A DNA stretch of 64,000 nucleotides from Eledone cirrhosa (taxonomy: Eukaryota). A program made the translations under genes and the position numbers. The notes under the pieces are model-generated. The model did not search any database, was not told where the DNA came from, and saw only the letters and a list, made by a program, of their open reading frames with translations. Shown here piece after piece: positions 13,248 to 64,000 of this stretch. Location of the stretch: contig OZ024745.1 of assembly GCA_964016885.1 (NCBI GenBank), positions 10,354,001 to 10,418,000 of the forward strand. Direction: 5' to 3'. Positions within the stretch are counted from its first letter, which is position 1, and every line of letters starts with the position of its first letter.

Positions 13248-14034
13248 AACCACTTTACATAATGTACTGTGTGTGTAATTCCTCCAAACTAGGGAGTTGT
13301 CATGTCTAGGGCTCAGCTGAACACTCCTCTAATTTGACTGGTAACTTCTATCTTTCAAAAATTAATATCTACATACATGCATGCTTGAATGAATATATAC
13401 ACACATATACACATACATATACACACATATACACCAGCTGAGATAATAAATCTCAGCAGCTGAAATATTCATTAGCTGTAAATTCATAAAACTTAAAACA
13501 TTACTGGTGTGAAGACAAACAAAATATCTTTACACAACAACTGCAACTAAATCAACATCACTAGTGTGACTCAATCTAAAACTAAGGAAACAAATTTTAT
13601 AATTTTGAAATAAATATTTAATAATTATTGTTAAATTAATTTAGTGACAAGTTTATAACTAATGATAGGTGTTAGAATAATAGTTGTTATCATAACAGGG
13701 GTAGTTTTATAACTAATGATAGGTGTGATCATAACAGGGGTAGTTTTATAACTAATGATAGGTGTTAGAATAATAGTTGTTATCATAACAGGGGTAGTTT
13801 TATAACTAATGATAGGTGTGATCATAACAGGGGTAGTTTTATAACTAATAGTAGTTGTGATCATAACAGAGGTAGTTTTATAACTAATGATAGGTGTGAT
13901 CATAACAGGGGTAGTTTTATAACTAATGATAGGTGTTAGAATAGTAGTTGTGATCATAACAGGGGTAGTTTTATAACTAATGATAGGTGTTAGAATAGTA
14001 GTTGTGATCATAACAGAGGTAGTTTTATAACTAA

Positions 14035-27118: not shown

Positions 27119-28164
27119 CACCTCTCTGTGGAGTCTTGGAAATGTATCTATTTTTCATAAATAAACTTCCATATCCTTGTCACTCAACGGAAGACACATA
27201 ATTAACTATATCTGGAAGCATTCACAAGTAAACTTATTTCAGCTCTGATAATTGCTATGCAAGATCTTATGTGATAAAAATACCTGTCTGCCAACAGTCG
27301 TTATACAAGTGATAGTTGAAACAGATAAGTTACCCTATCATTTAATGAACAACACATTCTGAAACTAAGAGAGAGCAGGTTCAATTTTACTTTACAGCAC
27401 AAATTTCATTTTCAATCACCTTGGCACCTCAGTGGCGCTTTTTGTTTTGAGAATTTTTTTTAATTTCTCTTTCTTTCTGGAATTATTATTGAAACTACCA
27501 AGCAGGAAACATAGTGGGGTGGTAGGAGTGGGAGATTTATTTTATTTTTACTTATTTGTTTAATGTTTTTATAGTAGGTTTGACAGTCTAATCTATCCTG
27601 TTTTAGAACATAAATTTTGGTTGAAATGAAAGGTGATGCCAACATAGAGATTTTACCTGCAGACAAATACTGTCACTGGTAAACTATAAGCTTCAATGTT
27701 CTTATATTAACAATCCAACTACTGACAACCCTCAGATGTCTGTAATCTACTGAAATCACAACTTACACAACAATTTTATTATTTCATTAATAGAAGAAAA
27801 AATATCAAATTTTGTGTAAATTTAGGTGAATTCTTTTTTTTTAATGCTTCTAGAAATTAATTTTTTTTTTCCTATGTTTCTAGAAATTAATCTATTTTGC
27901 ATAAATTTAACTCTTTACATATATTTCTTTATACTAATCACTCAAATGTAAAGTGAGAATATTACCTGTGCTAGTGGCATTGTGCCACTAGGAAAGGTAA
28001 CACCAAAAATGTTAGCCCCACCCAAACTAGTAGTCTGAACATCTGATGGCACACCAACATACATACACTTCCACTTTTTATCTACGATCCACTTCATGCT
28101 GTCACACTCCCACTAGTCTACTCTAAGTGACTATATTTACTACTTTAAAATAATGATCAAACAC

Positions 28165-28340
28165 AGAGGCACAGTTATGGCTGTGGTTAAGCAGTTTGCT
28201 TCATAACCACAGGGTTTCTGATTCAATCCCACTGCATGGCACTTGGGACAAAAGTCTTCTACTATGGCCTTGGGTTGACCAATGTCTTGTGAGTGCAGTT
28301 TGGTAAACAGAAACTGGAGCAGCCCATCGTGTGTGTGTGT
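28165..28340 (+). mobile_element. tRNA-derived SINE family C (octopus-type, ends in (GT)n)
   Basis: TGGCTGTGGTTAAG (A box-like) and GATTCAATCCC (B box-like), then CTTCTACTATGGCCTTGGGTTGACCAATGTCTTGTGAGTG...GAAACTG...GCCCATCGTGTGTG, recalled as an abundant octopus SINE. Confidence 0.65.
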
Positions 28341-29494
28341 GTAAAAAGTAAACCAAAATACAATACGTGTGAATGATACAGTACAATGAAGATATATATT
28401 TGTTTAATGCTTGATATAGAAAGAAAGAGTTAACATTTCAGGTGTTAGTCCTCCATCAGAAGATAGAATGAAGATAGATGAGAGTAAGAGGAGGAAGCAA
28501 CTGAGAAAATTTTTTGATGGGGAAAACGTGTGTTTTAGTCAACTATAAGAGGGTCTTAACATTTCGGATGCTAGACCTCCATCAGAAGAAAGAATGAGAA
28601 ATAAGATAGATTGAGGGGATTGGAATAGGAGATTGGGCATATTGAAGGTACTAGGGTGTGAGTGAAAAATAGACGGGTGAGAAGAAGAAGGTGGTTTAAG
28701 AAGATTGTAGTAGAGGAAAAGTGGTAGAGAGTCATGGACACATACATATATACACACACATTTGTATATGTGTGTCTACACTTGTGAATGTGTTTATGTC
28801 CTATAACCAAAGACTAAGAGAAAGCTCCCTACAGCAACCAATTCAAACATGAACAAAACATATAACAATGTTTTTCTCATCCTTTATGTATTCAAGAAAA
28901 ACAGTAATTTCATAACTTCTTATGTAGTATTTCTATGACTTTCTTATCTGAAATATTGTGGAAATGTTTGTATTATGCTCAAAGACTGCTTGGTTCTTTT
29001 GAAGCTGGAGAATTATTTTTCAGATTGCTAAAAATAAGCTTCTTCAAGAAAGACTTGTGATCTTTTTTTTTCTTTTCTTTTTGTTCTTTCTACCATAGCA
29101 ACCCACCTTTAGTTCATTTTAATCCCTTTGAATGTGTGAAAAGTCTTTGTCAAACCCTTTAAGAGTAGATTATAGAAAGTGTGCATATTTTATTTGATTA
29201 AAATATTTTCCTTTATCCATTAACCTTTTTATGATAATATTTTGATTAACGAAGAATTTGGAAGGATTTACAAAGATAATATTTATAACAGAGGGTTTTT
29301 ATAACATATGTTGGAAAATACTAATTTAAATAGAAATCCTTTTAAAATGGGTGATTTTGTTTTATAGAACCATAGCTGGTTTTAGGTGAGTTATCAAAAG
29401 GATTCCTATTTAAGTTAAAAGTTTCCAACATACATCACACTGGACATGGATCTTATACCATAGCCTTTTGTTTCAGTGATGTGTTACAAATACC

Positions 29495-29817
29495 ATTACG
29501 TCTGCCTTTCCCTGCTTGCAAGGGTGGGACATGGAACTGATTCTGGCTTGATTTCTACAGCTGGATGTCCTTCCTAACACCAACCTCATTTACAGTGAGT
29601 GCTGGGTGCTTTTTTGCCATGACACCTCCACGGCCACTTTGCAGTGGAATGATAGGGACCCCAGTCCCTATCATCTCATTTCTACAGCTGAGTAAACTGG
29701 AGCAATGTGAAATAAAGTGTCTTGCTCAAGGAAACAACACATCACCCGGTCCAAGAATTGAACTCACAACCTTTCGATTGCAAGGCCAATGCTCTAACCA
29801 CTAAGCCATATGCCTCC
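29495..29817 (-). mobile_element. SINE family B (tRNA head plus RTE-derived tail)
   Basis: Near-identical to 47176-47513. Confidence 0.9.
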
Positions 29818-30473
29818 ATCTTAATGAAATAATTAACAATTGAGAAAATCCATCCAAATTCTTCATTAATTCCAATGCAGTGTATTTCATTACAATTATT
29901 GCTCCAGTGCTAGAGTTGATTCTCTCTCTGGAAGAAATTGGCCATGCTGAGACCTGGAGAAAAGATGAGCTCCAAGCAGGTTTAAAATGTCTGACACCCT
30001 TATGACTCCATCTGGAGTTACAGGTACATACATATCATTGTATGCCTGCTTTCAATACTGTCATTGTTTAGAGGACTATAACATACATACATCCTGATTT
30101 TTGGTATGGTTTCTACAGCTGGGTGTCCTTCCTAACACCAACTTCTTTACAGAATGTACTGAATGCATTTTACTGTGGATTGGTTGCAGAAAAGTGGAGT
30201 ACTCTCTTAAATTTTGGTGAATCCTTGTTTCAGCACCAGACACAATATGTGTCATGCTTATTTACATATACCTTGATATGTTTCAAATTCACTAAACTTT
30301 ATTTCACCTGGGGTTCCAATCTTCTGATACCATAGTTTAGGGAATAAAAACCTTGCTTAGTATTGAGATCTAAGGTGAGAGATATCTAAAATGGTCGACT
30401 TCTTTTTAATTACTGCCATCTTATAGGCTAAAGTATAGGAGCCAGACTAAACCTTAATCACCAGAGGAGTAAA

Positions 30474-31924
30474 TCCCACCATGGAGTGGTAGTGTGACAG
30501 AGTTAAGTCAACAGTGATCCCACCATGGGGTGGTAGTGTGACAGAGTTATGTCAACAGTGATCCCACCATGGCGTGGTAGTTTGACAGAGTTATGTCAAC
30601 AGTGATCCCACCATGGGGTGGTAGTGTGACAGAGTTATGTCAACAGTGATCCCACCATGGCGTGGTAGTTTGACAGAGTTATGTCAACAGTGATCCCACC
30701 ATGGGGTGGTAGTGTGACAGAGTTAAGTCAACAGTGATCCCACCATGGCGTGGTAGTTTGACAGAGTTATGTCAACAGTGATCCCACCATGGCGTGGTAG
30801 TTTGACAGAGTTATGTCAACAGTGATCCCACCATGACGTGGTAGTGTGACAGAGTTAAGTCAACAGTGATCCCCCCATGGGGTGGTAGTGTGACAGAGTT
30901 ATGTCAACAGTGATCCCACCATGGGGTGGTAGTGTGACAGAGTTAAGTCAACAGTGATCCCACCATGGCGTGGTAGTGTGACAGAGTTAAGTCAACAGTG
31001 ATCCCACCATGGGGTGGTAGTGTGACAGAGTTATGTCAACAGTGATCCCACCATGGTGTGGTAGTGTGACAGAGTTAAGACAAGAGTGATCCCCCCATGG
31101 CGTGGTAGTTTGACAGAGTTATGACAACAGTGATCCCACCATGGCGTGGTAGTTTGACAGAGTTATGTCAACAGTGATCCCCCCATGGGGTGGTAGTGTG
31201 ACAGAGTTATGTCAACAGTGATCCCCCCATGGGGTGGTAGTGTGACAGAGTTATGTCAACAGTGATCTCCCCCATGGGGTGGTAGTGTGACAGAGTTATG
31301 TCAACAGTGATCCCCCCATGGGGTGGTAGTGTGACAGAGTTATGTCAACAGTGATCCCCCATGGGGTGGTAGTGTGACAGAGTTATGTCAACAGTGATCC
31401 CCCCATGGGGTGGTAGTGTGACAGAGTTATGTCAACAGTGATCCCCCCATGGGGTGGTAGTGTGACAGAGTTATGTCAACAGTGATCCCCCCATGGGGTG
31501 GTAGTTTGACAGAGTTAAGTCAACAGTGATCCCCCCATGGGGTGGTAGTGTGACAGAGTTATGTCAACAGTGATCCCACCATGGGGTGGTAGTGTGACAG
31601 AGTTAAGTCAACAGTGATCCCCCCATGGGGTGGTAGTGTGACAGAGTTAAGTCAACAGTGATCCCCCCATGGGGTGGTAGTGTGACAGAGTTATGTCAAC
31701 AGTGATCCCACCATGGGGTGGTAGTGTGACAGAGTTAAGTCAACAGTGATCCCCCCATGGTGTGGTAGTGTGACAGAGTTAAGTCAACAGTGATCCCCCC
31801 ATGGGGTGGTAGTGTGACAGAGCTAAGTCAACAGTGATCCCACCATGGGGTGGTAGTGTGACAGAGTTATGTCAACAGTGATCCCACCATGGCGTGGTAG
31901 TGTGACAGAGTTATGTCAACAGTG
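30474..31924. repeat. 44-bp minisatellite (GATCCCACCATGGGGTGGTAGTGTGACAGAGTTATGTCAACAGT)
   Basis: Period 44, about 33 units. Confidence 0.97.
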
Positions 31925-32015
31925 CATCACGCAAGATGCTGAGTGAAAAGATGTCATATCAACAGTTAGGATCAAAAGATTTCATTAAATAAAATACTGC
32001 AGCAATTATAGAAGA

Positions 32016-33599
32016 GTAGCACCAGATGTATGTAGCAATGTCAGTCAGTCACAACAGATGTATGTAGCAATGTCAGTGAGTCACACCAGATGTATGTAGC
32101 AATGTACAGTCATTCACACCAGATGTATGTAGCAATGTCAATCAGTTGTACCAGATGTAGCAATGCGTAGTCAGTCACACCAGATGTATGTACCAATGTG
32201 CAGTCAGTCACACCAGATGTATGTACCAATGTCAGTCAGTCACACCAGATGTATGTAACAATGTCAGTCAGTCACACCAGATGTATGTACCAATGTCTGA
32301 GTTACACCAGATGTAGTAATGTGCAGTCAGTCACACCAGATGTATGTACCAATGTCAGTCATTCACACCAGATGTATGTACCACAATGTCAGTCAGTCAC
32401 ACCAGATTATGTAGCAATGTCAGTCAGTCACACCAGATGTATGTACCAATGTCAATCAGTAGCACCAGATGTATGTACCAATGTGCAGTCAGTAGCACCA
32501 GATGTATGTACCAATGTCAGTCAGTCACACCAGATGTATGTACCAATGTGAGTCAGTCATACCAGATGTATGTAACAATGTCAGTCATTCACACCAGATG
32601 TATGTACCACAATGTCAGTCAGTCACACCGGATGTATGTAGCAATGTCAGTCAGTCACACCAGATGTATGTACCAATGTCAGTCAGTCACACCAGATGTA
32701 TGTAGCAATGTCAGTCAGTCACACCAGATGTATGTAGCAATGTCAGTCAGTCACACCAGATGTATGTACCAATGTCAATCAGTAGCACCAGATGTATGTA
32801 CCAATGTGCAGTCAGTAGCACCAGATGTATGTACCAATGTCAGTCAGTCACATCAGATGTATGTACCAATGTCAATCAGTAGCACCAGATGTATGTACCA
32901 ATGTGCAGTCAGTAGCACCAGATGTACCAATGTCAGTCAGTCACACCAGATGTATGTAGCAATGTCAGTCAGTAGCACCAGATGTATGTACCAATGTCAG
33001 TCAGTCACACCAGATGTATGTACCAATGTCAGTCAGTCACACCAGATGTATGTAGCAATGTCAGTCAGTCACACCAGATGTATGTACCAATGTCAGTGAG
33101 TAGCACCAGATGTATGTACCAATGTCAGCCAGTAGCACCAGATGTATGTACCAATGTCAGTCAGTAGCACCAGATGTATGTACCAATGTCAGTCAGTGAC
33201 ACCAGATGTATGTACCAATGTCAGTCAGTGACACCAGATGTATGTACCAATGTCAGTCAGTCACACCAGATGTATGTACCAATGTCAGTCAGTCACACTA
33301 GGTGTATGTAGCAATGTCAATCAGTAGCACCAGATGTTTGTAGCAATGTCAGTCAGTGACACCAGATGTATGTAGCAATGTCAGTCAGTGACACCAGATG
33401 TATGTAGCAATGTCAGTCAGTGACACCAGATGTATGTAGCAATGTCAGTCAGTGACACCAGATGTATGTAGCAATGTCAGTCAGTGACACCAGATGTATG
33501 TAGCAATGTCAGTCAGTGACACCAGATGTATGTAGCAATGTCAGTTAGTGACACCAGATGTATGTAGCAATGTCAGTCAGTCACACCAGATGTATGTAC
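32016..33599. repeat. 32-bp minisatellite (CACCAGATGTATGTACCAATGTCAGTCAGTCA)
   Basis: Period 32. Three units give the 32-aa repeat seen in the ORF track. Confidence 0.95.
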
Positions 33600-33766
33600 T
33601 TCCACTCATACTCTAGTCACCTGTCCTACACCCCTTCACCACCCTCTTCAATACCTGTCCTCTCACTTTTCTAATATACTAACCTCCAATATTCCCTTCC
33701 AAGAGGATCTTATACATTATAAGGGGAAAAATAGATACAATGCATAGTTTAGCATAAACAGCATGA

Positions 33767-36700
33767 ATGGTAGTTTATTGTAGTTTACTATAATACAATG
33801 GTAGGTCTTATGACGTAGTTTAGTATAATACAATGGTAGGAGGTCTTATGACATAGTTTAGTATAATACAATGGTAGGTCTTATGACGTAGTTTAGTATA
33901 ATACAATGGTAGGAGGTCTTATGACGTAGTTTAGTATAATACAATGGTAGGTCTTATGACGTAGTTTAGTGTAATACAATGGTAGGTCTTATGACGTAGT
34001 TTAGTGTAATACAATGGTAGGTCTTATGACGTAGTTTAGTATAATACAATGGTAGGAGGTCTTATGGCGTAGTTTAGTATAATACAATGGTAGGAGGTCT
34101 TATGACGTAGTTTAGTATAATACAATGGTAGGTCTTATGACGTAGTTTAGTATAATACAATGGTAGGAGGTCTTATGACGTAGTTTAGTATAATACAATG
34201 GTAGGCGGTCTAATGACAGTTTAGTATAATACAATGGTAGGTCTTATGACGTAGTTTAGTATAATACAATGGTAGGAGGTCTTATGACGTAGTTTAGTAT
34301 AATACAATGGTAGGCGGTCTAATGACAGTTTAGTATAATACAATGGTAGGTCTTATGACGTAGTTTAGTATAATACAATGGTAGGCGGTCTTATGACGTA
34401 GTTTAGTATAATACAATGGTAGGAGGTCTTATGACAGTTTAGTATAATACAATGGTAGGTCTTATGACGTAGTTTAGTATATACAATGGTAGGTCTTATG
34501 ACGTAGTTTAGTATAATACAATGGTAGGTCTTATGACGTAGTTTAGTATAATACAATGGTAGGAGGTCTTATGACGTAGTTTAGTATAATACAATGGTAG
34601 GTCTTATGACGTAGTTTAGTGTAATACAATGGTAGGTCTTATGACGTAGTTTAGTGTAATACAATGGTAGGTCTTATGACGTAGTTTAGTATAATACAAT
34701 GGTAGGAGGTCTTATGACGTAGTTTAGTATAATACAATGGTAGGAGGTCTTATGACGTAGTTTAGTATAATACAATGGTAGGTCTTATGATGTAGTTTAG
34801 TGTAATACAATGGTAGGTCTTATGACAGTTTAGTATAATACAATGGTATGTCTTATGACGTAGTTTAGTATAATACAATGGTAGGAGGTCTTATGACGTA
34901 GTTTAGTATAATACGATGGTAGGTCTTATGATGTAGTTTAGTATATACAATGGTAGGTCTTATGACGTAGTTTAGTATAATACAATGGTAGGTCTTATGA
35001 CGTAGTTTAGTATAATACAATGGTAGGTCTTATGACGTAGTTTAGTGTAATACAATGGTAGGTCTTATGACGCAGTTTAGTATAATACAATGGTAGAGGG
35101 TCTTATGACGTAGTTTAGTGTAATACAATGGTAGGAGGTCTTATGACGTAGTTTAGTATAATACAATGGTAGGAGGTCTTATGACGTAGTTTAGTGTAAT
35201 ACAATGGTAGGTCTAATGACGCAGTTTAGTATAATACAATGGTAGGAGGTCTTATGACGTAGTTTAGTATAATACAATGGTAGGAGGTCTTATGACGTAG
35301 TTTAGTATAATACAATGGTAGGAGGTCTTATGACGTAGTGTAGTGTAATAAAATGGTAGGTCTTATGATGTAGTTTAGTGTAATACAATGGTAGATCTTA
35401 TGACGTAGTTTAGTGTAATACAATGGTAGGTCTTATGACACAGTTTAGTGTAATACAATGGTAGGAGGTCTTATGACGCAGTTTAGTGTAATACAATGGT
35501 AGGTCTTATGACGTAGTTTAGTGTAATATAATGGTAGGTCTTATGACGTAGTTTAGTGTAATACAATGGTAGGTCTTATGACGTAGTTTAGTGTAATACA
35601 ATGGTAGGTCTTATGACACAGTTTAGTGTAATACAATGGTAGGAGGTCTTATGACACAGTTTAGTGTAATACAATGGTAGGAGGTCTTATGACGCAGTTT
35701 AGTATAATACAATGGTAGGAGGTCTTATGACGTAGTTTAGTATAATACAATGGTAGGAGGTCTTATGACGCAGTTTAGTATAATACAATGGTAGGAGGTC
35801 TTATGACGCAGTTTAGTATAATATAATGGTAGGAGGTCTTATGACGTAGTTTAGTATAATACAATGGTAGGTCTTATGACGTAGTTTAGTGTAATACAAT
35901 GGTAGGTCTTATGACGTAGTTTAGTATAATACAATGGTAGGAGGTCTTATGACGTAGTTTAGTATAATACAATGGTAGGTCTTATGACGTAGTTTAGTGT
36001 AATACAATGGTAGGTCATATGACGTAGTTTAGTATAATACAATGGTAGGTCTTATGACGTAGTTTAGTGTAATATAATGGTAGGTCTTATGACGTAGTTT
36101 AGTGTAATACAATGGTAGGTCTTATGACGTAGTTTAGTGTAATACAATGGTAGGTCTTATGACGTAGTTTAGTGTAATACAATGGTAGGTCTTATGACGT
36201 AGTTTAGTGTAATACAATGGTAGGTCTTATGACGTAGTTTAGTGTAATACAATGGTAGGTCTTATGACGTAGTTTAGTATATACAATGGTAGGTCTTATG
36301 ACGTAGTTTAGTATAATACAATGGTAGGTGTTATGACGTAGTTTAGTGTAATACAATGGTAGGTCTTATGACGTAGTTTAGTATATACAATGGTAGGTCT
36401 TATGACGTAGTTTAGTGTAATACAATGGTAGGTCTTATGACGTAGTTTAGTATAATACAATGGTAGAAGGTCTTATGACGTAGTTTAGTGTAATACAATG
36501 GTAGGTCTTATGACGTAGTTTAGTGTAATATAATGGTAGGTCTTATGACGTAGTTTTGTATAATACAATGGTAGGTCTTATGACGTAGTTTAGTGTAATA
36601 CAATGGTAGGAGGTCTTATGACGTAGTTTAGTGTAATACAATGGTACGAGGTCTTATGACGTAGTTTAGTGTAATACAATGGTAGGAGGTCTTATGACGT

Positions 36701-36835
36701 AGTTTAGTGTAATACAATGGTACGAGGTCTTATGACGTAGTTTAGTGTAATACAATGGTAGGAGGTCTTATGACGTAGTTTAGTGTAATACAATGGTACG
36801 AGGTCTTATGACGTAGTTTAGTGTAATACAATGGT
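33767..36835. repeat. 35/38-bp minisatellite (TAGTTTAGTATAATACAATGGTAGG[AGG]TCTTATGACG)
   Basis: About 85 tandem units in two length variants. Confidence 0.97.
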
Positions 36836-38786
36836 TTTATTCACCAAATTTCACTTGGTTTATATAATGTTTACAATAGAAAGAAGGTGAAAAATTAAAT
36901 AGTATAACTAAGGGAAAGGCAGCTGACACGGAATATCTCTGCTGTGTCCTACAGCCAGCAACAACCACTCCTCCCTCAACATATCTCTGCTGTGTCCTAC
37001 AAGCAAAACATTGAAGGTAATGCCATGAAGAACAACCAGGAACAACCACTACATCAACCACTCCACCTCATGGGATGCACTCCTCACAATTTTGCAAAAG
37101 AAAACGGCAATTGAAGGCCCGAGGACACCAGAGATCATGACAGTGACCGTCATGAAATGGAAGCAGTTGGTCAAGCAGTCAAGTAAAATTATCAATGAAA
37201 AGGAAGCAAATAGGTAAGTTATAACAGTACTGTCAATGGTTTTTAGCTTTCAACTTTAGTAAATTAATCTTATGGAAAGTGAATGAAATTAATATTGAGT
37301 TGCAGTTAATGGTTGAAAGGTATTCTTCACACATTCTAACATTTAATGCTCTTTTTTTCTAAGTGACACATTGAATTAAGAAGAAGAAGAAAAGCAGTCA
37401 TGAAATTATTCTGCTCTATTTTTCATTTAAAACATAATATATTTCTGTTTGTAGAGAGATTTGAAATAATCAAAAGAGACAGCTCAGAAAAATAATTTGG
37501 AGAGAAAGAGACTAAATGAATTTAAAAAAAACAAAAACAATTTTAAAGATGAAATGTAGCAAAGATTCCTGTGCATATTTCTACTGATATTTTCTTTATA
37601 TTTTACCAATAATTTTACAAAATTTAGAAATAAATTTGTACTATCATATACAAAATATTTAACAGTGATAATTTCTGTACTTCATATTCACTGTATGAAG
37701 ATTTATTACATTTATGTGACTACTGTTGGGAGGCTACAGTCTCTGTTGATTGTAGAGAGATGATATAGAGGACTGTAGTGTGGGTGACACAATAATACAC
37801 ACCAAGTCCACTCTGTAAAATGGTAGTGGTGGTGACTAAATAAAATGCACCAAGTCCACTCCGTAAAGTGATGTTGCTGGTGACACAATAAAATACACCA
37901 AGTCCACTCTGTAAGTGGTAGTGTTGCTGCCATGAAAAAATACACCTAGTACACTATATAAGGTGGTTAGTTTGAGGGAGGGCATCCAGCCATAGAAACC
38001 ATGCCAAATATGGAATGTAGGAGTAAGACATGGACACCTGACCAGTCAAGCCTCAGAACTCATCCAACCCATACCAGTATGGAGAGTGGACGTAAAGATG
38101 ACGATGATGATGAATAGATTAAAAATGAGAAGCAATTAAGAAAATGAAATCAGGAGTCTCATGAGTGTAAAGTAAGAGGCTGAAAGCATCTTAAGTAAAA
38201 TGGCACTACTGACCTGTTTAGCTAATTTGTTCATTAAGGAAGGTGTTAATCTCACTAATTAGCAACTTTGTGCTATTATTAACTGCTATAAAAGCAAGGA
38301 AGCTATGTGTGAATTTAGTGAAACTACAGGGAGTAAAGTTAATATGCTAAGTAATAAAGATGAGAAAAATAGTAAAACAGTTGGTTGTTGTATAATACCA
38401 TAAAGATCTAGTGAAATATATTTCTGGTATAGATGACATGAGACAACCTACATGGATACGTAGTTTATAAAGATCTACTGAAATATATTTCTGCTATAGA
38501 GGACATTCTAGTATTTACAGGACAACCGACATGGACAGGCAATTCAACATGGTGTTGCCCCAGCATGGCATCAGTCTGTCGGCTGGAACACAATAGAGTG
38601 GTAGAGGATATCAGAGAAGGTAAAGTTGACATCGGATTTGAAGTGAGAACATAGAAAGTTGGAACTAAATGCGACAACATATTTTGTCCAATGCTCTACC
38701 GATCTTACCAATCTCCTGCCCTTCACCAGTCACCCTCAATTCAATAGTTAATTATTAAGATGACAGAATAGAAATGATTATGTTTA

Positions 38787-40501
38787 GAATATAGTAAGAC
38801 CAATATTACAGTCTGGAGTATAGTAAGACCAATATTACAGTCTGGACTATAGTAAGACCAATATTACAGTCTGGACTATAGTAAGACCAATATTACAGTC
38901 TGGACTATAGTAAGACCAATATTACAGTCTGGACTATAGTAAGACCAATATTACAGTCTGGAATATAGTAAGACCAATATTACAGTCTGGAATATAGAAA
39001 GACCAATATTACAGCCTGGAATATAGTAAGACCAATATTACAGTCCGGAATATAGTAAGACCAATATTATAGTCTGGAATATAGTAAGACCAATATTACA
39101 GCCTGGAATATAGAAATACCAATATTACAGTCTGGAATATAGTAAGACCAATATTACAGTCCGGAATATAGTAAGACCAATATTATAGTCTGGAATATAG
39201 TAAGACCAATATTACAGCCTGGAATATAGAAATACCAATATTACAGTCTGGAATATAGTAAGACCAATATTACAGTCTGGAATATAGTAAGACCAATATT
39301 ACAGTCTGGAATATAGTAAGACCAATATTACAGTCTGGAATATAGAAAGACCAATATTACAGCCTGGAATATAGTAAGACCAATATTACAGTCCGGAATA
39401 TAGTAAGACCAATATTATAGTCTGGAATATAGTAAGACCAATATTACAGCCTGGAATATAGAAATACCAATATTACAGTCTGGAATATAGTAAGACCAAT
39501 ATTACAGTCCGGAATATAGTAAGACCAATATTATAGTCTGGAATATAGTAAGACCAATATTACAGCCTGGAATATAGAAATACCAATATTACAGTCTGGA
39601 ATATAGTAAGACCAATATTACAGTCTGGAATATAGTAAGACCAATATTATAGCCTGGAATATAGTAAGACCAATATTACAGTCTGGAATATAGAAATACC
39701 AATATTACAGTCTGGAATATAGTAAGACCAATATTACAGTCTGGAATATAATAAGACCAATATTACAGCCTGGAATATAGAAAGACCAATATTACAGCCT
39801 GGAATATAGTAAGACCAATATTACAGCCTGGAATATAGTAAGACCAATATTACAGTCTGGAATATAGTAAGACCAATATTACAGTCTGGAATATAGTAAG
39901 ACCAATATTACAGCCTGGAATATAGTAAGACCAATATTACAGCCTGGAATATAGTAAGACCAATATTACAGCCTGGAATATAGAAAGACCAATATTACAG
40001 TCTGGAATATAGTAAGACCAATATTACAGTCTGGAATATAATAAGACCAATATTACAGTCTGGAATATAGTAAGACCAATATTACAGCCTGGAATATAGT
40101 AAGACCAATATTACAGCCTGGAATGTAGTAAGACCAATATTACAGCCTGGAATATAGTAAGACCAATATTACAGCCTGGAATATAGTAAGACCAATATTA
40201 CAGTCTGGAATATAGTAAGACCAATATTACAGTCTGGAATATAGTAAGACCAATATTACAGTCTGGAATATAGAAAGACCAATATTACAGCCTGGAATAT
40301 AGAAAGACCAATATTACAGCCTGGAATATAGTAAGACCAATATTACAGTCTGGAATATAGTAAGACCAATATTACAGTCTGGAATATAGTAAGACCAATA
40401 TTACAGCCTGGAATATAGTAAGACCAATATTACAGCCTGGAATGTAGTAAGACCAATATTACAGCCTGGAATATAGTAAGACCAATATTACAGTCTGGAA
40501 T
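38787..40501. repeat. 29-bp minisatellite (AATATAGTAAGACCAATATTACAGTCTGG)
   Basis: Period 29, about 59 units. Confidence 0.97.
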
Positions 40502-40573
40502 CTTCATTGAGATAAACAAAGAATCATTATTCTGAATTCTCCAAAGACTGATGCTACAAATAATATAACCAGA

Positions 40574-43500
40574 TTGTGAACTACTGTGAAGTTATGAACT
40601 AGTGTTGTATAGTTGTGAACTAGTGTTGTATAGTTGTGAACTAGTGTTGTGTAGTTGTGATCTAGTGTTGTATAGTTGTGATCTAGTGCTGTATAGTTGT
40701 GAACTACTGTGAAGATATGAACTAGTGTTGTATAGTTGTGAACTAGTGTTGTATAGTTGTGAACTAGTGTTGTATAGTTGTGAACTAGTGTTGTGTAGTT
40801 GTGAACTAGTGTTGTATAGTTGTAATCTAGTGTTGTATAGTTGTGAACTAGTGTTGTATAGTTGTGAACTAGTGTTGTATAGTTGTGAACTAGTGTGGTA
40901 TAGTTGTGAACTAGTGTTGTATAGTTGTGAACTAGTGTTGTATAGTTGTGATCTAGTGTTGTATAGTTGTGAACTAGTGTTGTATAGTTGTGAACTAGTG
41001 TTGTATAGTTGTGATCTAGTGTTGTATAGTTGTGAACTAGTGTTGTATAGTTGTGAACTAGTGCTGTATAGTTGTGAACTAGTGCTGTATAGTTGTGAAC
41101 TAGTGCTGTATAGTTGTGATCTAGTGCTGTATAGTTGTGAACTAGTGTTGTATAGTTGTGAACTAGTGTTGTATAGTTGTGAACTAGTGTTGTATAGTTG
41201 TGAACTAGTGCTGTATAGTTGTGAACTAGTGCTGTATAGTTGTGAACTAGTGCTGTATAGTTGTGAACTAGTGTTGTATAGTTGTGAACTAGTGTTGTAT
41301 AGTTGTGAACTAGTGTTGTATAGTTGTGATCTAGTGTTGTATAGTTGTGAACTAGTGTTGTATAGTTGTGACCCAGTGTTGTATAGTTGTGAACTAGTGC
41401 TGTATAGTTGTGAACTAGTGCTGTATAGTTGTGATCTCGTGTTGTATAGTTGTGAACTAGTGTTGTATAGTTGTGAACTAGTGTTGTATAATTGTGAACT
41501 AGTGTTGTATAATTGTGAACTAGTGTTTTATAGTTGTAATCTAGTGTTGTATAGTTGTGAACTAGTGTTGTATAGTTGTAATCTAGTGTTGTATAGTTGT
41601 GATCTAGTGTTGTATAGTTGTGAACTAGTGTTGTATAGTTGTGAACTAGTGTTGTGTAGTTGTAATCTAGTGCTGTATAGTTGTGAACTAGTGTTGTATA
41701 GTTGTGAACTAGTGCTGTATAGTTGTGAACTAGTGTTGTATAGTTGTGAATTAGTGTTGTGTAGTTGTGAACTAGTGCTGTATAGTTGTGAACCAGTGTT
41801 GTATAGTTATGAACTAGTGTTGTATAGTTATGAACTAGTGCTGTATAGTTGTGAACTACTGTGAAGTTATGAACTAGTGCTGTATAGTTATGAACTAGTG
41901 CTGTATAGTTATGAACTAGTGTTGTATAGTTATGAACTAGTGTTGTATAGTTATGAACTAGTGCTGTATAGTTGTGAACTAGTGCTGTATAGTTATGAAC
42001 TAGTGCTGTATAGTTGTGAACTACTGTGAAGTTATGAACTAGTGCTGTATAGTTATGAACTAGTGTTGTATAGTTGTGAACTACTGTGAAGTTATGAACT
42101 AGTGCTGTATAGTTATGAACTAGTACTGTATAGTTGTGAACTACTGTGAAGTTATGAACTAGTGCTGTATAGTTGTGAACTAGTGTTGTATAGTTGTGAT
42201 CTAGTGTGAAGTTATGAACTAGTGTTGTATAGTTGTGAACTAGTGTTGTATAGTTGTGATCTAGTGTGAAGTTATGAACTAGTGTTGTATAGTTGTGAAC
42301 TAGTGTTGTATAGTTGTGATCTAGTGTGAAGTTATGAACTAGTGTTGTATAGTTATGAACTAGTGTTGTATAGTTGTGAACTAGTGTTGTATAGTTGTGA
42401 ACTACTGTGAAGTTATGAACTAGTGTTGTATAGTTATGAACTAGTGTTGTATAGTTATGAACTAGTGTTGTATAGTTATGAACTAGTGCTGTATAGTTGT
42501 GAACTACTGTGAAGTTATGAACTAGTGCTGTATAGTTATGAACTAGTGCTGTATAGTTATGAACTAGTGCTGTATAGTTATGAACTAGTGCTGTATAGTT
42601 GTGAACTAGTGCTGTATAGTTATGAACTAATGCTGTATAGTTATCAACTAGTGCTGTATAGTTGTGAACTAGTGCTGTATAGTTGTGAACTAGTGCTGTA
42701 TAGTTATGAACTAGTACTGTATAGTTGTGAACTAGTGCTGTATAGTTGTGAACTACTGTGAAGTTATGAACTAGTGCTGTATAGTTATGAACTAGTGCTG
42801 TATAGTTATGAACTAGTGCTGTATAGTTATGAACTAGTGTTGTATAGTTATGAACTAGTGTTGTATAGTTGTGAACTAGTGCTGTATAGTTGTGAACTAG
42901 TGCTGTATAGTTATGAACTAGTGTTGTATAGTTATGAACTAGTGTTGTATAGTTATGAACTAGTGTTGTATAGTTATGAACTAGTGTTGTATAGTTATGA
43001 ACTAGTGCTGTATAGTTGTGAACTACTGTGAAGTTATGAACTAGTGCTGTATAGTTATGAACTAGTGTTGTATAGTTATGAACTAGTGTTGTATAGTTAT
43101 GAACTAGTGTTGTATAGTTATGAACTAGTGCTGTATAGTTGTGAACTAGTGCTGTATAGTTGTGAACTAGTGTTGTATAGTTATGAACTAGTGCTGTATA
43201 GTTATGAACTAGTGCTGTATAGTTGTGAACTAGTGCTGTATAGTTATGAACTAGTGCTGTATAGTTGTGAACTACTGTGAAGTTATGAACTAGTGCTGTA
43301 TAGTTGTGAACTACTGTGAAGTTATGAACTAGTGCTGTATAGTTGTGAACTAGTGCTGTATAGTTGTGAACTAGTGCTGTATAGTTATGAACTAGTGCTG
43401 TATAGTTGTGAACTACTGTGAAGTTATGAACTAGTGCTGTATAGTTGTGAACTAGTGCTGTATAGTTGTGAACTAGTGCTGTATAGTTATGAACTAGTGC

Positions 43501-44055
43501 TGTATAGTTATGAACTAGTGCTGTATAGTTGTGAACTAGTGTTGTATAGTTATGAACTAGTGCTGTATAGTTATGAACTAGTGCTGTATAGTTATGAACT
43601 AGTGCTGTATAGTTGTGAACTAGTGCTGTATAGTTGTGAACTACTGTGAAGTTATGAACTAGTGCTGTATAGTTGTGAACTAGTGCTGTATAGTTGTGAA
43701 CTAGTGTTGTATAGTTGTGAACTACTGTGAAGTTATGAACTAGTGCTGTATAGTTGTGAACTAGTGTTGTATAGTTGTGAACTAGTGTTGTATAGTTATG
43801 AACTAGTGTTGTATAGTTATGAACTAGTGTTGTATAGTTATGAACTAGTGTTGTATAGTTGTGAACTAGTCTTGTATAGTTATGAACTAGTGCTGTATAG
43901 TTATGAACTAGTGCTGTATAGTTATGAACTAGTGCTGTATAGTTATGAACTAGTGTTGTATAGTTATGAACTAGTGCTGTATAGTTGTGAACTACTGTGA
44001 AGTTATGAACTAGTGCTGTATAGTTATGAACTAGTGTTGTGTAAATTATGAACTA
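40574..44055. repeat. 21-bp minisatellite (GAACTAGTGTTGTATAGTTGT) with an interspersed 18-bp variant (GAACTACTGTGAAGTTAT)
   Basis: Tandem units visible directly. It is the source of the LYSCELV ORFs. Confidence 0.97.
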
Positions 44056-46299
44056 TTGTCAGTGGGTGACATTGAGAAAAATATAGAGAATATTCATATT
44101 AAGTACATAGAACACATTGGTTTGTGTAGGAGACTTGTTTTGTTTGGTGGCAAAGTTGGTGGTAATATAACCAAGGAAGAGATAAGCTTTGCAGGAAGGA
44201 AACATTATGAAGGATATGTAGTAGAAGAGAAAATAGATAAAAGTGGAAGAAAAAAAACCCTTTCCAAATTATCACAAACATATACAAATTTTAATAAATA
44301 TACGAACTAAAATTATTTCTATGACAATAAAACAACAATAAATCATACACTTCAACTGCCATTAACAACCTGCAATGCTTTATGTAAGCATTACAATATG
44401 TATTAACTGGTAGCTAGTACTATGTTACACCCAAACTGTAAGTTTTCTGGTGTAGGGTGGCCTTCACAAACTATTGGCTGAATCCCTCTTTTAATAAACA
44501 AGAAAGTGTTGCTCATACAACACACCTATCCAAGTTAAGTTTTTAGTTATTTCTTTATCTTAAACTTGTAAAAGAAGCAGCAGAAAGTCAGTTTTTGGGA
44601 GCCACCCTATTTTAATCTCTATGGCAGTCTCCTAGATGCTACATATTTTCAGATAGCATGTCTGTGCATTCCAGGTTTCAAACTTGACATCAAAATACAT
44701 GGAAATGGAAACCTACTGATAAGTAACATTGACAACCGTAAAGATTTACCAAACATTTGGAGAAATCAAAGATTAGCATGGGGTGGGGATGAAGTAAGGT
44801 GGGGGGAACAACTACTGAATATATCTTTACAAAAATGGAAATGTTATCTTTCACAGAATCTATAGTATTTTGTTTTAGAAACTTATTACAAGATTCTTAT
44901 CAAATATGTGAATGTGCTTTTATATTATTTAGCGGTGTGTGATAGCATTTCTAAGTGGAAAATAGAAAGAAAAAAACAACCTATTATTACTGTTCCAAAA
45001 GTCACTAGTAGTAGCATTATCAATAATTAATGAGAGGAGTGAGAATGGTAAAACAAAGAAGAAGAAAACAAGTAATGAGAAGAAATGAAAAGCAATAGCA
45101 AGTTTAAGAGAACAAAATCATAAAAATGTTTTACATTTTTGTATTCTTGCAGCGGGTTTACCATAAATGGTCTTTCAGTATGTTGTTTCTAGTTTCAGCA
45201 TCTACAGATAATCAAAAGTAAGGTATTAATACCAACTACTTATTTCCTTTTAAGCAAAAATCACTTTCCAATACTTAAAACACATTTCATATTTAATGGC
45301 TTACTTTAAGAAATAATTGTTTCTTAAAGAGAAAACACTTCTAAATTTGGATGATAAAATTTTCAAGTAAGGGAAAAAAAAAGAGTATTCTAATTTCTAA
45401 ATAGAAAATATTCCATCATGTAAGATTAACTGAGCTTATGGATGCTATCCAAATATCTTACTCATGGTCTACCTCTGGGCACCTTCACTGTTGGCTTTGC
45501 CCATTAAATCAATTCAATGTTTCTTTTCTTAGACATTCTGACCTCTTGATTCAGAGAAATAGAGGCACTACCTGGAGCAATTACCAGGTCTCCAGGATAC
45601 ACACTTTTGAGTGAAGAAAAGAAGAAAAGAAAAAAAGAAAAAGAAAAAGAAAAGAAAAAGAAAAGAAAAAGGAGATACAACCTATTTCTTTTGACTTTGT
45701 TATCATTGGTATTGAGAAAGTTTAGACATGTGTCTACATCTATATTCATACCTTCATACCTGCAAAGATTTCACTATTTCATATACATGGTAAACATAAT
45801 GACCAAATACAAACAAATAGAACCAAACTTTCACAGAACCAAAACAATATTTCTCAAGAGTTCAGATTTCAATCATGACCCTTTGTTTATCACAGAATCA
45901 GAAAACTTAAAAAAACATATTTGATTTGTAAATGTTGTTGTCATAACAAAAGATTCCTGAATATGTTTGCAAAGTTAGAATATTGGATGAATAAAGAGGA
46001 TAAAGCAATATGTATTGAAGTATTAAACTACTTTGTAGTATTATCATATATTTTCTAGTTGAATTCAATAATAGCTCATCTTTCTTATCTGTTATACAAC
46101 TTATATAATATCTGTTAAGCTGATAGCTGCTGGAAAATGTTTTATCAGAAAAGAAAACAACAGTATATTTATCATAAGTTGAATAAAAAATAGTTTAAAC
46201 CTGAATTTGAAACACATTCTGACGATTTCTAAAGGGTTCAGAGAAAGAGATATTTTTTTTAGCACCAAAATCCAATCTATACACATATATAAAAAAGAT

Positions 46300-57161: not shown

Positions 57162-57206
<45 letters not shown>

Positions 57207-57376
57207 TCTACGGCTTTGATATAAGTACCCCCGCCGCCTTTGTGGTATTTTTGTCTTGGTTGTAAGAGGCTTAGCTCTGTTTCTTGACCGCTGTATCGCG
57301 TGATTGACTCCCCCTCCGCCTTTCAGGATTCTATCTCGCGTCCTAACGGATGTGTTTTGACACTCTAAATGAGGCA

Positions 57377-57469
57377 TCCTCTTGATAAGTCGGCAAACCT
57401 CACAAAAATACTGTATCTCTGTGATGTAGTGTTTTTGCATAATATGCCACGAAACTACGTAGACGAGGA
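57377..57469 (+). ncRNA. Type I hammerhead ribozyme, U3-A8 core variant with extended helix II
   Basis: TCCTC - TTGATAA (57382-57388) - GTcGGCA...TGCCAC - GAAAC TAC GTA (cut after 57461) - GAcgaGGA. A 15-bp hairpin (57403-57437) lies inside helix II. Confidence 0.65.
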
Positions 57470-58979
57470 CTAATGAAGGAATTTAGGTATGGTATATCTT
57501 AATTATATCTGTCTCTTCTTTCTTTATATATATATATATAACCAAGATCCTCAGCAGATGAAAGCCTGGCCCTCTATATATATATATATTACCAAGGGCC
57601 TCAGTAGATGAAGGACCGACCCCCACAGGGCCAGAATTAAGTAATGCCTCTACCAATTCAGCAGAGCCGGGAGGAATACCACAAAGTAATTTATCTGACC
57701 TAATGACTACCAATTCACCACCTTCCACTTATACTTAAAATAGCAATTTCAATGAATATATAACTTCACAACTTTAATTTAAAATTCTGACAAGCTTTTA
57801 CATTTTTTTAAAATCCTTTTCAATGTTTTAGACACATTTTCCCTGCTTAGCGTGAATGGAATTCATGTTTGTTAGAGCAGTACTTTGTAGTGGAGTATGC
57901 CCTTCCTACCACTAACCACAGAACTATGAGGCTGAACTCTGCTGCCAATTAGGCAAATTTAAGTACATTGTTCACAATAAAACAGGAAAGTCTGGCTACT
58001 AGTACTTAACTATTAATGGCCTGTACCACATAAAACCACATTATCAAGATATTGTTGAAAAGTACAGCACCCTGCATCTAATCTGGCCACTAGCAAAGAT
58101 ACAATAAACATCTGAATTAACAAACCATATGAAAATACATTAGCATGACATTGAAGTTAAAAACAGCACTAGTTTTATAGATATTTTCTGATAAATCATT
58201 ACAGGAGGTGTTTAGTGAAAACTCTATTAAAGTATTGATGATATAATGGAGCAGGTGGTGGTGGTAAACTGGACAACAGATTAAGTCTACCACTCAAGTG
58301 GGCTGCAGTGGGATTTCAACACAAAGAGCCAGAACAAAATACCACAAGGCATTTCATCCAACATTGTAACAATTCTGTCAATCCACCCCAGTGTTACTGG
58401 TACTTTATCAACCCTGAAAGGATAAAAGGTAATGTTGATCTTGACAGGATTTGAACTCAGTGTGCAGAGGATCAGAACAGATACAGTAAGACATTTCTAG
58501 GGTTCTAATAACTACCGATTCATCACCTGTTACACTTAAGACATCATCATCATGTTTTTCCCAGTTAGCAAGGCTTGGACATTACAGAACAAGTCCATAC
58601 TCTAGTCGGGCTATAGACCTCTCAGAAAGAGGGGGGGGGCTCCATTTAGCTTACCTCCCCACACTCTACTGAGTATATTTTATCATGGCACCCCCACTAG
58701 GGACGTTATATCTTTGACACAGCTGAAGAGTCCTCCTGACCCTTTTTTAGGCAGGCTTTCTACAGCTGGATACTCTTCCTATCACCAACCACTTTACTGG
58801 GTATGTTTATCACTAGAGAGGATGCTGGATGTCCTTCCTATTCCAACCATGTTACATTTAAGGAAATTCCAGACAAACTCACAAAATATCAATATTTGGA
58901 GCTTATAAAGAAGACAAACCTCAAGATGATCCAGGATTAAGCTATATTTAAGTTTCTTTATCATTATAACACAGTTTAA

Positions 58980-61778: not shown

Positions 61779-62063
61779 TAAATGTATTATATATCTTAAG
61801 TATGGTCATTTGGTACCCGGTAAGGGTAATTAGACTCATACCAAGGTAGAGATAATCCTCATCTAAATATCGATGCCGCTCAGGTGGGTATCAATATAAT
61901 GAAATCTATTCACATAGATCGAACTTCGTTTGACTGTCTATCTATTTATATATATATATATAACGAAGGAGTTGTGGTAAGGAACCAAATGGACCATAAC
62001 GCACCAGAGTACTCAATACTTAGGGTAGTAGAAACGGTTTGAGCTCTGCCGTCAGGGTCATAC

Positions 62064-62095
<32 letters not shown>

Positions 62096-62153
62096 CTTTA
62101 CTCTTTGTTCTTGAATGTTTGGTTGGTAGAGTCCATAACACCAATCAAACCCC

Positions 62154-62213
62154 TTTTATAGCTCTGACGAATCCTACGGTTACGTAAGGAAGAAACATTG
62201 TAAGCCAATAAAA
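62154..62213 (+). ncRNA. Type I hammerhead ribozyme (near-canonical, Penelope/retrozyme-like)
   Basis: TTTTATaGCT - CTGACGA (62164-62170) - aTCCTACG GTTA CGTAaGGAa - GAAAC ATT GTA (cut after 62202) - AGCcaATAAAA. There is an A-A mismatch at the first pair of helix II. Confidence 0.6.
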
Positions 62214-62247
62214 ATCTTTTGATGTTGTAGACGCTCTTGTGTTCTTT

Positions 62248-62298
<51 letters not shown>

Positions 62299-62490
62299 GT
62301 AAGGAGTTGACGAACCCAGCATATTTATCAATGAAAGGACCGGTTGTATCTCACCGTGGACAATGTAAGATACACTCCCAGAGTATACACATAGTTATTC
62401 GCTTCAGTACAACACACGTAAAACGGGTGCCTATAATAGTTCCCGGACTTGAGCTTCAGCCGCACTTATATATATATATATATATAACCC

Positions 62491-64000
62491 GACAACCACC
62501 TGATCACCTATAGATCAGGGGAGCATTCTAGTCAGATAGATTTTATCCTCATCAGAGGACGTGACAGATGGACGGTCCTAAACACAAAAGCCTACCCTAG
62601 TGAGGAATGTACCACCCAACATAGCTTAGTTGTCAGAACTAGACGAACCTGGAAAAGAAAGATCTGGAAGCTGAAAGACACCTCAGCCAGTAACAGATTT
62701 AAAGATATTTTACTCAACGCCTACGACAATAAAGAAGACCAGATAGAAACATTCAATGTAGAAGAACACTGGGAGTTCCTAAAAAATAACTTACTAGAGG
62801 CAACGGATGAGGTCTGTGGCTGGAGTAAGACCACAAGCAGGAGGAGAGTGACTTGGTGGTGGAACAATAAGGTAGATGAGGCGGTTAAGGCCAAGAGACA
62901 GGCATGGAAAGAATGGCAGAACGGGGGGAGCAGGGTACATTACATAGAGATCAAGAAGGAAGCTAGGCGACAAGTATACTTAGCTAGGATGGAAGCAGAG
63001 GATAGAAAATTCAAGCATGTTTTGCAACGTGAGGACCAGAAACAGGAGGTGTTCAAAATTGCGAGGCAGTGTGTCAGAGAGAATTGTGATGTCATTGGAG
63101 AGAAGCGTATCCGGAATGATAAAGGTGAGCTTGCCCTCACAAGTGCTGAGAAGAAAGATGCATGGAAGAGTCATTATGATAGATTACTAAATGAGGAGAA
63201 TGCATGGGAAGAAGAGACCCTACCCCAAGTAGACCCTATAGAGGGGCCAGCAGTACAAGTCAGCAGCAGTGTAATAAGTAAGGCAATCAAAGATATGAAG
63301 ATGGGTAAGGCAACCGGTCCATCGTGTATAGCTGCCGAGATGCTGAAGGCATCTGGGTCTGTAGGTCACACTATAACCACACGTATTGTTAACCAGGTAA
63401 TACTAGAAGGTGTCATACCAAAAGATTGGTGCAGTAGCATCATTGTCAACTGCTACAAAGGTAAAGGTGATGCACTAGATAGAGGAAACTATAGAGGTAT
63501 AAAGCTGATGGACCAGGTCATGAAAGTAACAGAAAGAGTTATAGCACAGTTGATTAGGGACCGGGTGAAACTAGATGAGATGCAATTTTGGTTTGTACCA
63601 GGAAGAGGCACCACTAATGCCCTCTTCCTTGTGAGGCAGTTACAGGAAAAGTACCTAGCTAAAAGTAAGCCACTCTACCTGGCATTCGTCGATCTCGAGA
63701 AAGCCTTTGACAGAGTTCCACGTGCTGTAATCTGGTGGGCTCTTAGAAAACTAGGAGTAGATGAATGGCTTGTGAAAGCTGTCCAAGCCATATATAGGGG
63801 AACAGTCAGCAAAGTTAGGATTAGCAATGAGTATAGCGAAGAATTTAGCGTACAGGTTGGTGTCCACCAGGGCTCTGTTCTTAGCCCTCTCCTGTTCATC
63901 ATAGTCCTGCAGGCAATAACGGAGGAGTTTAAGACTGGATGCCCATGGGAACTCCTGTATGCTGATGACGTCGCACTTATAGCTGAATCTATGGTAGAAC
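62491..64000 (+). mobile_element. RTE LINE, 5'-truncated inside the APE endonuclease; stop-free frame continues beyond the window
   Basis: Manual frame +1 translation: HLITYRSG..SQIDFILIR..EECTTQHSLVV (APE end), TWWWN, KATGPS, YKGKGD..NYRGIKL, FVDLEKAFDRV, QGSVLSPLLF and YADD at 63958-63969. Confidence 0.95.

What the first reader, a model, noticed from the sequence alone, without database searches (positions are those of the whole stretch)
61948..62490. Stack of unrelated short modules separated by (TA)n, each with a hammerhead-like fold
Seen: three modules (61962-62068, 62096-62250, 62293-62467) alternate with (TA)n tracts. The middle one has a near-canonical type I hammerhead (62154-62213) with the same GAAAC-NNN-GUA architecture as 57377. 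The third has, on minus, CTGGGAG-TGTATCTTAC..GTGAGATACA-ACCGGTC (62338-62385; helix II intact, core decayed). The first has, on minus, CTGACGG-CAGAGCTC-AAACCG (weak). Another TA-bounded module sits at 23682-23777. Inference: several families of small ribozyme-bearing elements repeatedly home into (TA)n, probably mobilised by Penelope-like RT/endonucleases, and build composite arrays.
Basis: partly seen in the sequence, partly recalled or inferred. Interest (0 to 1): 0.75.

Follow-up and report, generated by a model that had tools for sequence, protein, structure and literature searches.

The report
Stacked stubs of Hydra Penelope elements
The three short pieces are cut-off tail ends of three different Penelope-type jumping-gene families that likely landed one after another in the same TA repeat; only the middle one keeps a whole predicted self-cutting (hammerhead) RNA, and this kind of element and its TA preference are already described.

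Summary
The stack is real, but the modules are not small free-standing ribozyme elements. The middle one is the exact last 155 bp of a 4.9-kb Hydra-clade Penelope-like element (family A) with a complete type I hammerhead. The first is a head-to-head stub of a second autonomous Hydra family (B, intact ~720-aa ORF, 55,036 exact motif matches). The third is the last 175 bp of an 837-bp non-coding unit with the same end architecture (C). Hammerhead motifs are about 7-fold enriched in TA-flanked segments, yet only 12 of 143 such segments carry one. Hydra elements with hammerheads and (TA)n targeting, including one from Octopus, are published (PMC8557442), and the scan noted such TA fields before on other DNA of this genome. 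One side result stands out: about 90% of family B copies stop inside helix II, more likely at a transcription start than at a stall. No cleavage was tested. New members of a known kind; low interest.

The parts
61947..61961 (.). (TA)n tract 1, target remnant
   Evidence: sequence
61962..62032 (-). Module 1, arm 1: the 71-nt 'tail' of Hydra family B, read from its second fixed 3' end
   Evidence: 91% to L121; in full-length copies this stretch lies between pLTR end and ORF (L123, L276); 4,868 raw DNA reads of run X21 continue past 62032 with the uninverted family sequence
62031..62068 (+). Module 1, arm 2 (inverted): 3' half of the family B hammerhead (GAAA 62031-62034, helix III, GUC 62051-62053, helix I 3' strand) up to the first fixed 3' end; the 5' core is absent
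   Evidence: the same 2-nt-overlap junction is seen in 11 of 26 loci read, in two subfamilies
62069..62095 (.). (TA)n tract 2
62096..62250 (+). Module 2: last 155 bp of Hydra family A (4,870-bp unit), 5'-truncated
   Evidence: 40 of 40 scored hits 100% identical; 30 of 30 fetched loci extend further upstream; full-length copy L091
62154..62213 (+). Complete type I hammerhead of family A: extra A after the core, 2-bp helix III with a near-palindromic ACAUUGU, predicted cut after 62202
   Evidence: sequence; descriptor hit; helices I and II in the MFE fold, core not
62251..62292 (.). (TA)n tract 3
62293..62467 (-). Module 3: last 175 bp of family C, an 837-bp non-coding unit with pLTR-type partial tandems
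   Evidence: positions 663-835 of the L098 unit, 87%; unit and tandems
62442..62464 (-). Mutated 3' half of the family C hammerhead (GAAG for GAAA; 5' core lost by truncation)
   Evidence: family reads GAAACTCGAGTC in 17 of 25 sites read and has CTGATGA upstream in 13 loci long enough
62345..62384 (-).
   Evidence: the window copy lacks the 3' strand
62468..62486 (.). (TA)n tract 4
62487..64000 (+). Neighbour, not part of the stack's mechanism: 5'-truncated LINE-type RT element (RTE-like by recalled motifs)
   Evidence: 504-aa open frame, RVT_1 E=1.2e-22; ends in (GAT)n then (TA)n about 1.2 kb beyond the window

Best explanation
The three modules are truncated 3' ends of three Penelope-like families, two with Hydra-clade RT-endonuclease genes elsewhere in the genome and one non-coding, which likely inserted independently into one (TA)n tract. 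Shown: family membership, fixed 3' ends against (TA)n, full-length parents, hammerhead motifs in the parents. Inferred from published Penelope biochemistry: the element's protein nicks AT-rich DNA and primes reverse transcription at one of two internal RNA sites (pLTR end, tail end); copying usually ends early, leaving a stub; when both cut strands are primed, the two cDNAs join head-to-head over 2-10 nt of overlap (module 1). Each insertion leaves TA on both sides, so the tract stays a target and stacks grow without any module needing another. By identity to the nearest copies (100, 94, 90%) module 2 probably came last and module 3 first. Modules 1 and 3 cannot form a hammerhead on their own; module 2 would need a partner copy because helix III is only 2 bp.
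For: Family A: pLTR-ORF-pLTR in L091 with RWR, DKT, CxCx5C, CxxC and CxH motifs; 40 of 40 copies taken in genome order end at the same 3' site within 4 nt, followed by TA-rich sequence or (8 of 40) the tail, while 5' ends scatter from -33 to beyond -450. Family B: open ~720-aa ORF with the same motifs in L275 and L276, 3,547-bp unit, 47% identical to A; two fixed 3' ends, 40 of 52 incidental copies align to one of the two; raw reads run into (TA)n at both. Family C: longest frame 88 aa, 837-bp unit preceded by truncated copies of itself, 17 of 20 copies end at 833-837, 5' ends scatter, and it shares the bulged hairpin within 8 nt of the first fixed end with A and B (background 0.06 per kb). 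In 590 kb sampled at evenly spaced positions 12 of 30 full hammerhead motifs lie in TA-flanked 100-400-bp segments that make up 5.8% of the bases (binomial p=4e-8), and 24 of 30 have (TA)5+ within 250 nt downstream against 20% of random positions. Published: Hydra clade has canonical hammerheads and inserts into (TA)n (PMC8557442), Hydra-1_Obim is listed from Octopus; two RT start sites and the tail (PMC11167929).
Against: No autonomous partner of family C was found, so its mobiliser could be another TA-targeting Penelope clade. Pfam did not recognise the family A RT or a Hydra endonuclease; clade assignment rests on motifs compared by eye with the paper, not on a tree. Only 12 of 143 TA-flanked segments hold a full motif, so most TA-bounded segments are something else or are truncated past it. 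The MFE folds do not show the catalytic core for A and C. The insertion order is inferred from identity only. No cleavage or RNA data.
Confidence: 0.9

Rival explanations
1. The modules are small non-autonomous ribozyme elements with two defined ends, each replicating as a unit.
For: Family C is non-coding with a long-helix hammerhead; family B stubs are short with clustered 5' ends (15 of 24 at -8 to -21 from GAAA).
Against: Modules 2 and 3 start at points inside longer units, and their families' 5' ends scatter. Family B junctions differ from copy to copy and the same junction recurs in two subfamilies, which fits repeated independent joining rather than descent from one mini-element. Modules 1 and 3 lack the 5' core.
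Confidence: 0.05
2. The stack moves or was formed as one composite (template switching in one event, or a transcribed array re-inserted as a block).
For: Family B stubs sit beside A or C copies in several loci (e.g. L020, L026, L043, L050).
Against: B has over 55,000 motif copies, so chance neighbourhood in TA tracts is expected; partners, order and orientation vary; the three modules differ in age (100, 94, 90%); only the window locus holds all three.
Confidence: 0.04
3. The hammerhead-like folds are chance matches in AT-rich repeat DNA.
Against: 36 full motifs in 600 kb (7 of them from one satellite) against 0, 3 and 3 in shuffles and 2 in reversed sequence; 13 motif families with different helices around the same core, several with the U3-A8 covariant.
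Confidence: 0.01

Closest known systems
Hydra clade of C-terminal-endonuclease Penelope-like elements, incl. Hydra-1_Obim of Octopus bimaculoides (Craig et al. 2021, PMC8557442; seen: passages, section 11, supplement rows)
   Same: Single RT-endonuclease ORF, DKT, CxCx5C, CxxC, CxH, no CCHH seen, hammerhead in the pLTR, (TA)n insertion, 5' truncation, inverted copies and one-sided tail.
   Different: RWR for RWK; units of 4.9 and 3.5 kb against 'generally <3 kb'; tails of about 100, 78 and 90 nt against 30-40; these families are distinct from Hydra-1_Obim by eye (different hammerhead and N-terminus); very high copy number of B.
Metazoan PLE hammerheads (Cervera and de la Pena 2014, PMC4209133; parts 1-2 of 4 read)
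   Same: [quoted passage not shown]
   Different: Helix II inserts of 54 nt (B) and 84 nt (C) are longer than the 7-8 bp stems described; A closes helix II with U-A rather than G-C; B has a 5-6 bp helix III that could fold as a monomer.
Poseidon of Anolis, in vitro mechanism (Frangieh et al. 2024, PMC11167929; parts 1-2 of 4 read)
   Same: Two fixed ends that delimit a tail; copies run through the hammerhead cut site, so uncut RNA was the template; both DNA strands can be used.
   Different: Other clade; target there is AT-rich/ATT rather than (TA)n; not tested for Hydra.
Metazoan non-LTR retrozymes as non-autonomous PLE derivatives (bioRxiv 10.64898/2026.07.22.740005, part 1 of 5 read; PMC7229834, search listing only)
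   Same: Family C is non-coding, has a type I hammerhead and partial tandems.
   Different: 837-bp unit mostly as truncated monomers or 1.x-mers, not long head-to-tail arrays; no circular RNA shown.

Membership tests
Hydra-clade PLE (families A and B) | Single ORF, RT followed by C-terminal endonuclease | tested here: met
   B: open ~720 aa in L275, L276; A: same layout with one frameshift in L091
Hydra-clade PLE (families A and B) | RWK motif near the N-terminus and DKT for DKG | tested here: met
   RWR (conservative variant) and DKT in both
Hydra-clade PLE (families A and B) | CxCx5C linker, CxxC and CxH around the conserved E/N, no CCHH | tested here: met
   read from the translations
Hydra-clade PLE (families A and B) | Hammerhead in pLTR; partial tandems, inverted copies, tail | tested here: met
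Hydra-clade PLE (families A and B) | Insertion into (TA)n | tested here: met
   A; B: 41 of 52 incidental and 16 of 24 sampled copies followed by TA, raw reads
Hydra-clade PLE (families A and B) | Phylogenetic placement of the RT with published Hydra elements | not tested
   no tree built; published proteins were seen in the supplement and compared by eye only
Non-autonomous PLE / non-LTR retrozyme (family C) | Non-coding unit with type I hammerhead | tested here: met
   longest frame 88 aa; 24 full motif hits
Non-autonomous PLE / non-LTR retrozyme (family C) | Head-to-tail tandem of at least two units each with a complete hammerhead | tested here: inconclusive
   partial tandems are common, a few upstream copies reach past the 5' core (e.g. 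L132, L133, L148); no long arrays seen
Non-autonomous PLE / non-LTR retrozyme (family C) | Identified autonomous partner; circular RNA | tested here: inconclusive
   no linked ORF in 30 loci; shared boundary hairpin points to Hydra; RNA not testable here
Type I hammerhead ribozyme (module 2) | Core CUGANGA...GAAA...UH with three helices | tested here: met
Type I hammerhead ribozyme (module 2) | Site-specific self-cleavage | not testable with these tools
   needs an in vitro assay
Type I hammerhead ribozyme (modules 1 and 3 as they stand) | Complete core in the window copy | tested here: not met
   5' core absent in both; GAAA mutated in module 3

The most novel reading that the evidence does not exclude
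Family B shows that a Hydra element starts transcription inside helix II of its own hammerhead, so its mRNA carries only half a ribozyme at the 5' end, and the protein mostly primes on the two sites at that 5' pLTR and runs off after 60-150 nt; about 50,000 genomic half-hammerheads would then be a fossil map of the transcription start and of two-strand priming, and stacked (TA)n arrays a dated record of successive families.
Probability: 0.45. Interest if true: 0.5.

Novelty: new member of a known kind. Interest (0 to 1): 0.24.

Why it matters
As a locus it is ordinary debris of a published retroelement clade. It does show how much of this genome's (TA)n-associated DNA is Penelope-derived (about one full hammerhead motif per 20 kb in the sample, at least 13 motif families; Hydra-type ORF pieces in 7 of 60 sampled 10-kb stretches) and supplies two young families, one with intact ORFs, for testing what the Penelope hammerhead does and how (TA)n is targeted, neither of which the papers read here settle.

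Tried and rejected
Rfam scan: no hammerhead hit, only TA-repeat matches to miRNA models. Pfam: no RT or GIY-YIG hit for the family A protein or a Hydra endonuclease piece. A pattern asking for CTGANGA within 30 nt of the family B half gave 14 heterogeneous chance junctions; the true core is the U3-A8 variant 54 nt upstream. Naiad was my first recalled guess; rejected because the endonuclease is C-terminal and canonical hammerheads are present. Test for presence/absence polymorphism of module 2: inconclusive, no contig or read spans the stack and joints at the repeats are skipped. No RNA holder listed, so expression and cleavage were not examined. Search for an ORF linked to family C in 30 loci: none. 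A general helix II truncation hot spot across families: not supported; it is strong in B only, A and C scatter. RT stalling at the hairpin as the cause in B: considered, ranked below a transcription start because ends pile up beyond the unwound 3' strand with a sharp upstream edge at a TTAGTCC motif. The first descriptor missed the B and C motifs; the relaxed one has no shuffle control of its own. PMC3088659 was seen as a search listing only. Five literature searches showed no title or abstract opening on stacks of several PLE families in one (TA)n or on truncation inside helix II; full texts were not checked for this, and bioRxiv supplements were closed.

Full report
Observation. The window lies in a 3.0-Gb animal genome. 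Four (TA)n tracts at about 61947-61961, 62069-62095, 62251-62292 and 62468-62486 separate three unrelated modules. Rfam reports no hammerhead anywhere in the window, so each motif had to be judged from its family.

Module 2 (62096-62250, plus). All 40 scored genome hits are 100% identical over 155 bp. In 30 of 30 fetched loci the sequence continues upstream; L091 holds pLTR, ORF and pLTR, a 4,870-bp unit with one frameshift. The protein has RWR, DKT, CxCx5C, CxxC and CxH, the diagnostic set of the Hydra clade in PMC8557442 section 11. An exact 22-mer of the hammerhead occurs 1,196 times. Of 40 copies taken from the start of that list (skipping some close neighbours), all end at the same 3' site within 4 nt; 19 have 5' ends inside the fetched stretch, scattered from -33 to -491, and 21 run to its edge. 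The module is therefore a randomly truncated 3' end. Its hammerhead is complete. [quoted passage not shown] Helix III has 2 bp and a near-palindrome, the dimer-type design.

Module 1 (61962-62068). The best other copy is 94% identical. Against uninverted copies it consists of two arms: 61962-62032 is the 71-nt tail on the minus strand, and 62031-62068 is the 3' half of a hammerhead on the plus strand, running to the first fixed end. Raw DNA reads confirm that most family copies continue uninverted at 62032 (4,868 reads in run X21). The parent, family B, is a second Hydra element: L275 and L276 have an open ORF of about 720 aa directly after the tail, 47% identical to family A, in a 3,547-bp unit. 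Its hammerhead has the U3-A8 covariant core, a 54-nt helix II and a 5-6 bp helix III, and folds as such. The same junction as in the window occurs in 11 of 26 loci read, in two subfamilies, which points to repeated joining over short overlaps.

Module 3 (62293-62467, minus). The best other copy is 90% identical. It is the last 175 bp of an 837-bp unit without a frame over 88 aa, often preceded by a truncated copy of itself; 247 exact 21-mers, a lower bound for this older family. The family hammerhead is CUGAUGA, an 84-nt helix II, GAAA, a perfect palindrome and GUC; the window copy begins 11 nt before GAAA and has lost the core. That site is the start of a bulged hairpin that lies within 8 nt of the first fixed end in A, B and C alike, against a background of 0.06 per kb; earlier scan notes led me to look for it. 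It is the best evidence that C borrows a Hydra enzyme; no linked ORF was found.

The other two loci named. The 57205-57526 module is also the 3' end of a longer element with a U3-A8 hammerhead; 19 of 19 other copies have U before the cut site, so the shared 'GAAAC-NNN-GUA' is a point mutation in the window copy. The 23682 segment is the head of an old repeat that is not TA-bounded in 19 of 19 other copies and shows no hammerhead.

I sampled 60 stretches of 10 kb at evenly spaced round positions. A strict descriptor found 36 full motifs, 7 from one satellite, against 0, 3 and 3 in shuffles. With that satellite locus dropped and G-U pairs allowed, 12 of 30 motifs lie in TA-flanked 100-400-bp segments covering 5.8% of bases (p=4e-8), but these are only 12 of 143 segments. 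Of 211 TA-flanked segments of 40-500 bp, 125 match a segment in another locus, and 57 of 110 runs hold two or more segments within 200 bp of each other, up to nine. Stacks are common here; not every motif hit was checked by hand.

Mechanism. Shown: parents, fixed 3' ends at (TA)n, scattered 5' ends, inverted arms, hammerheads in parents. Inferred, from PMC11167929: nicking of AT-rich DNA, priming at two internal RNA sites that bound the tail, uncut RNA as template, either strand extended. Insertion into (TA)n leaves TA on both sides, so the tract remains a target. Only the window locus holds all three modules among the 90 loci compared, and their ages differ, so sequential independent insertion is the simplest reading; a direct test on alleles was inconclusive.

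Side result. Family B has 55,036 exact matches to the 3' half of its hammerhead but 5,454 to a degenerate pattern of the 5' half about 55 nt upstream. In the sample 15 of 24 copies start 8-21 nt before GAAA; read depth in three RAD runs of one study falls more than 30-fold across that stretch, and about 25-fold in one contig set (RAD bias and subfamily mismatches contribute). The cluster has a sharp upstream edge at a TTAGTCC initiator-like motif (motif recalled). I first read this as RT stalling; note e1-9577420 proposed run-off at a transcription start, which fits the edge better. Neither is tested, and families A and C do not show it.

Comparison and verdict. Hydra elements with hammerheads and (TA)n targeting are published, with an Octopus member; every hammerhead variant seen here except the very long helix II is in PMC4209133; the scan has earlier notes on TA fields of Hydra ends in this genome. 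The finding is three new members of a known kind in a common arrangement. Interest 0.24.

Noticed in passing
L276:2990-3003 (family B helix II); genome-wide: About 90% of family B copies stop within a 14-nt stretch of hammerhead helix II next to an initiator-like motif; many are head-to-head dimers.
   Followed up: partly
L091:4254-4276, L276:3058-3082 and 3135-3157, L148 (family C): A bulged RCTC...GAGY hairpin follows the fixed 3' ends of three unrelated families; candidate RT-start signal.
   Followed up: partly
window 57205-57526 and 14024-14122: 3' end of a fourth hammerhead-bearing family (U3-A8 core, 62-nt helix II), cut-site U mutated in this copy; its tail sequence occurs separately at 14024. 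L232 has two related motifs 595 bp apart.
   Followed up: partly
window 23682-23777: Head of an old dispersed repeat with a fixed 5' end that continues into a common SINE-like 3' part in other copies; not a TA module.
   Followed up: partly
window 62487-64000 and L097:1-1230: 5'-truncated LINE-type RT element abutting the last TA tract; after its (GAT)n end come (TA)n and another stub resembling family B-type ends, so the element probably also sits inside the TA field.
   Followed up: no
L217, L245, L239, L226, L231, L235, L222: Hydra-type ORF pieces (35-63% identical to family A) in 7 of 60 sampled 10-kb stretches; at least 13 hammerhead motif families among all fetched loci.
   Followed up: no
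L091:1-1545 and L275 minus strand (645-aa frame): Other Penelope-type ORFs (one with RVT_1 and GIY-YIG Pfam hits) lie next to the Hydra copies; clades not determined.
   Followed up: no
window 25202-44059: Dense run of unrelated young minisatellites (periods 21-44 bp, 33-169 copies).
   Followed up: no
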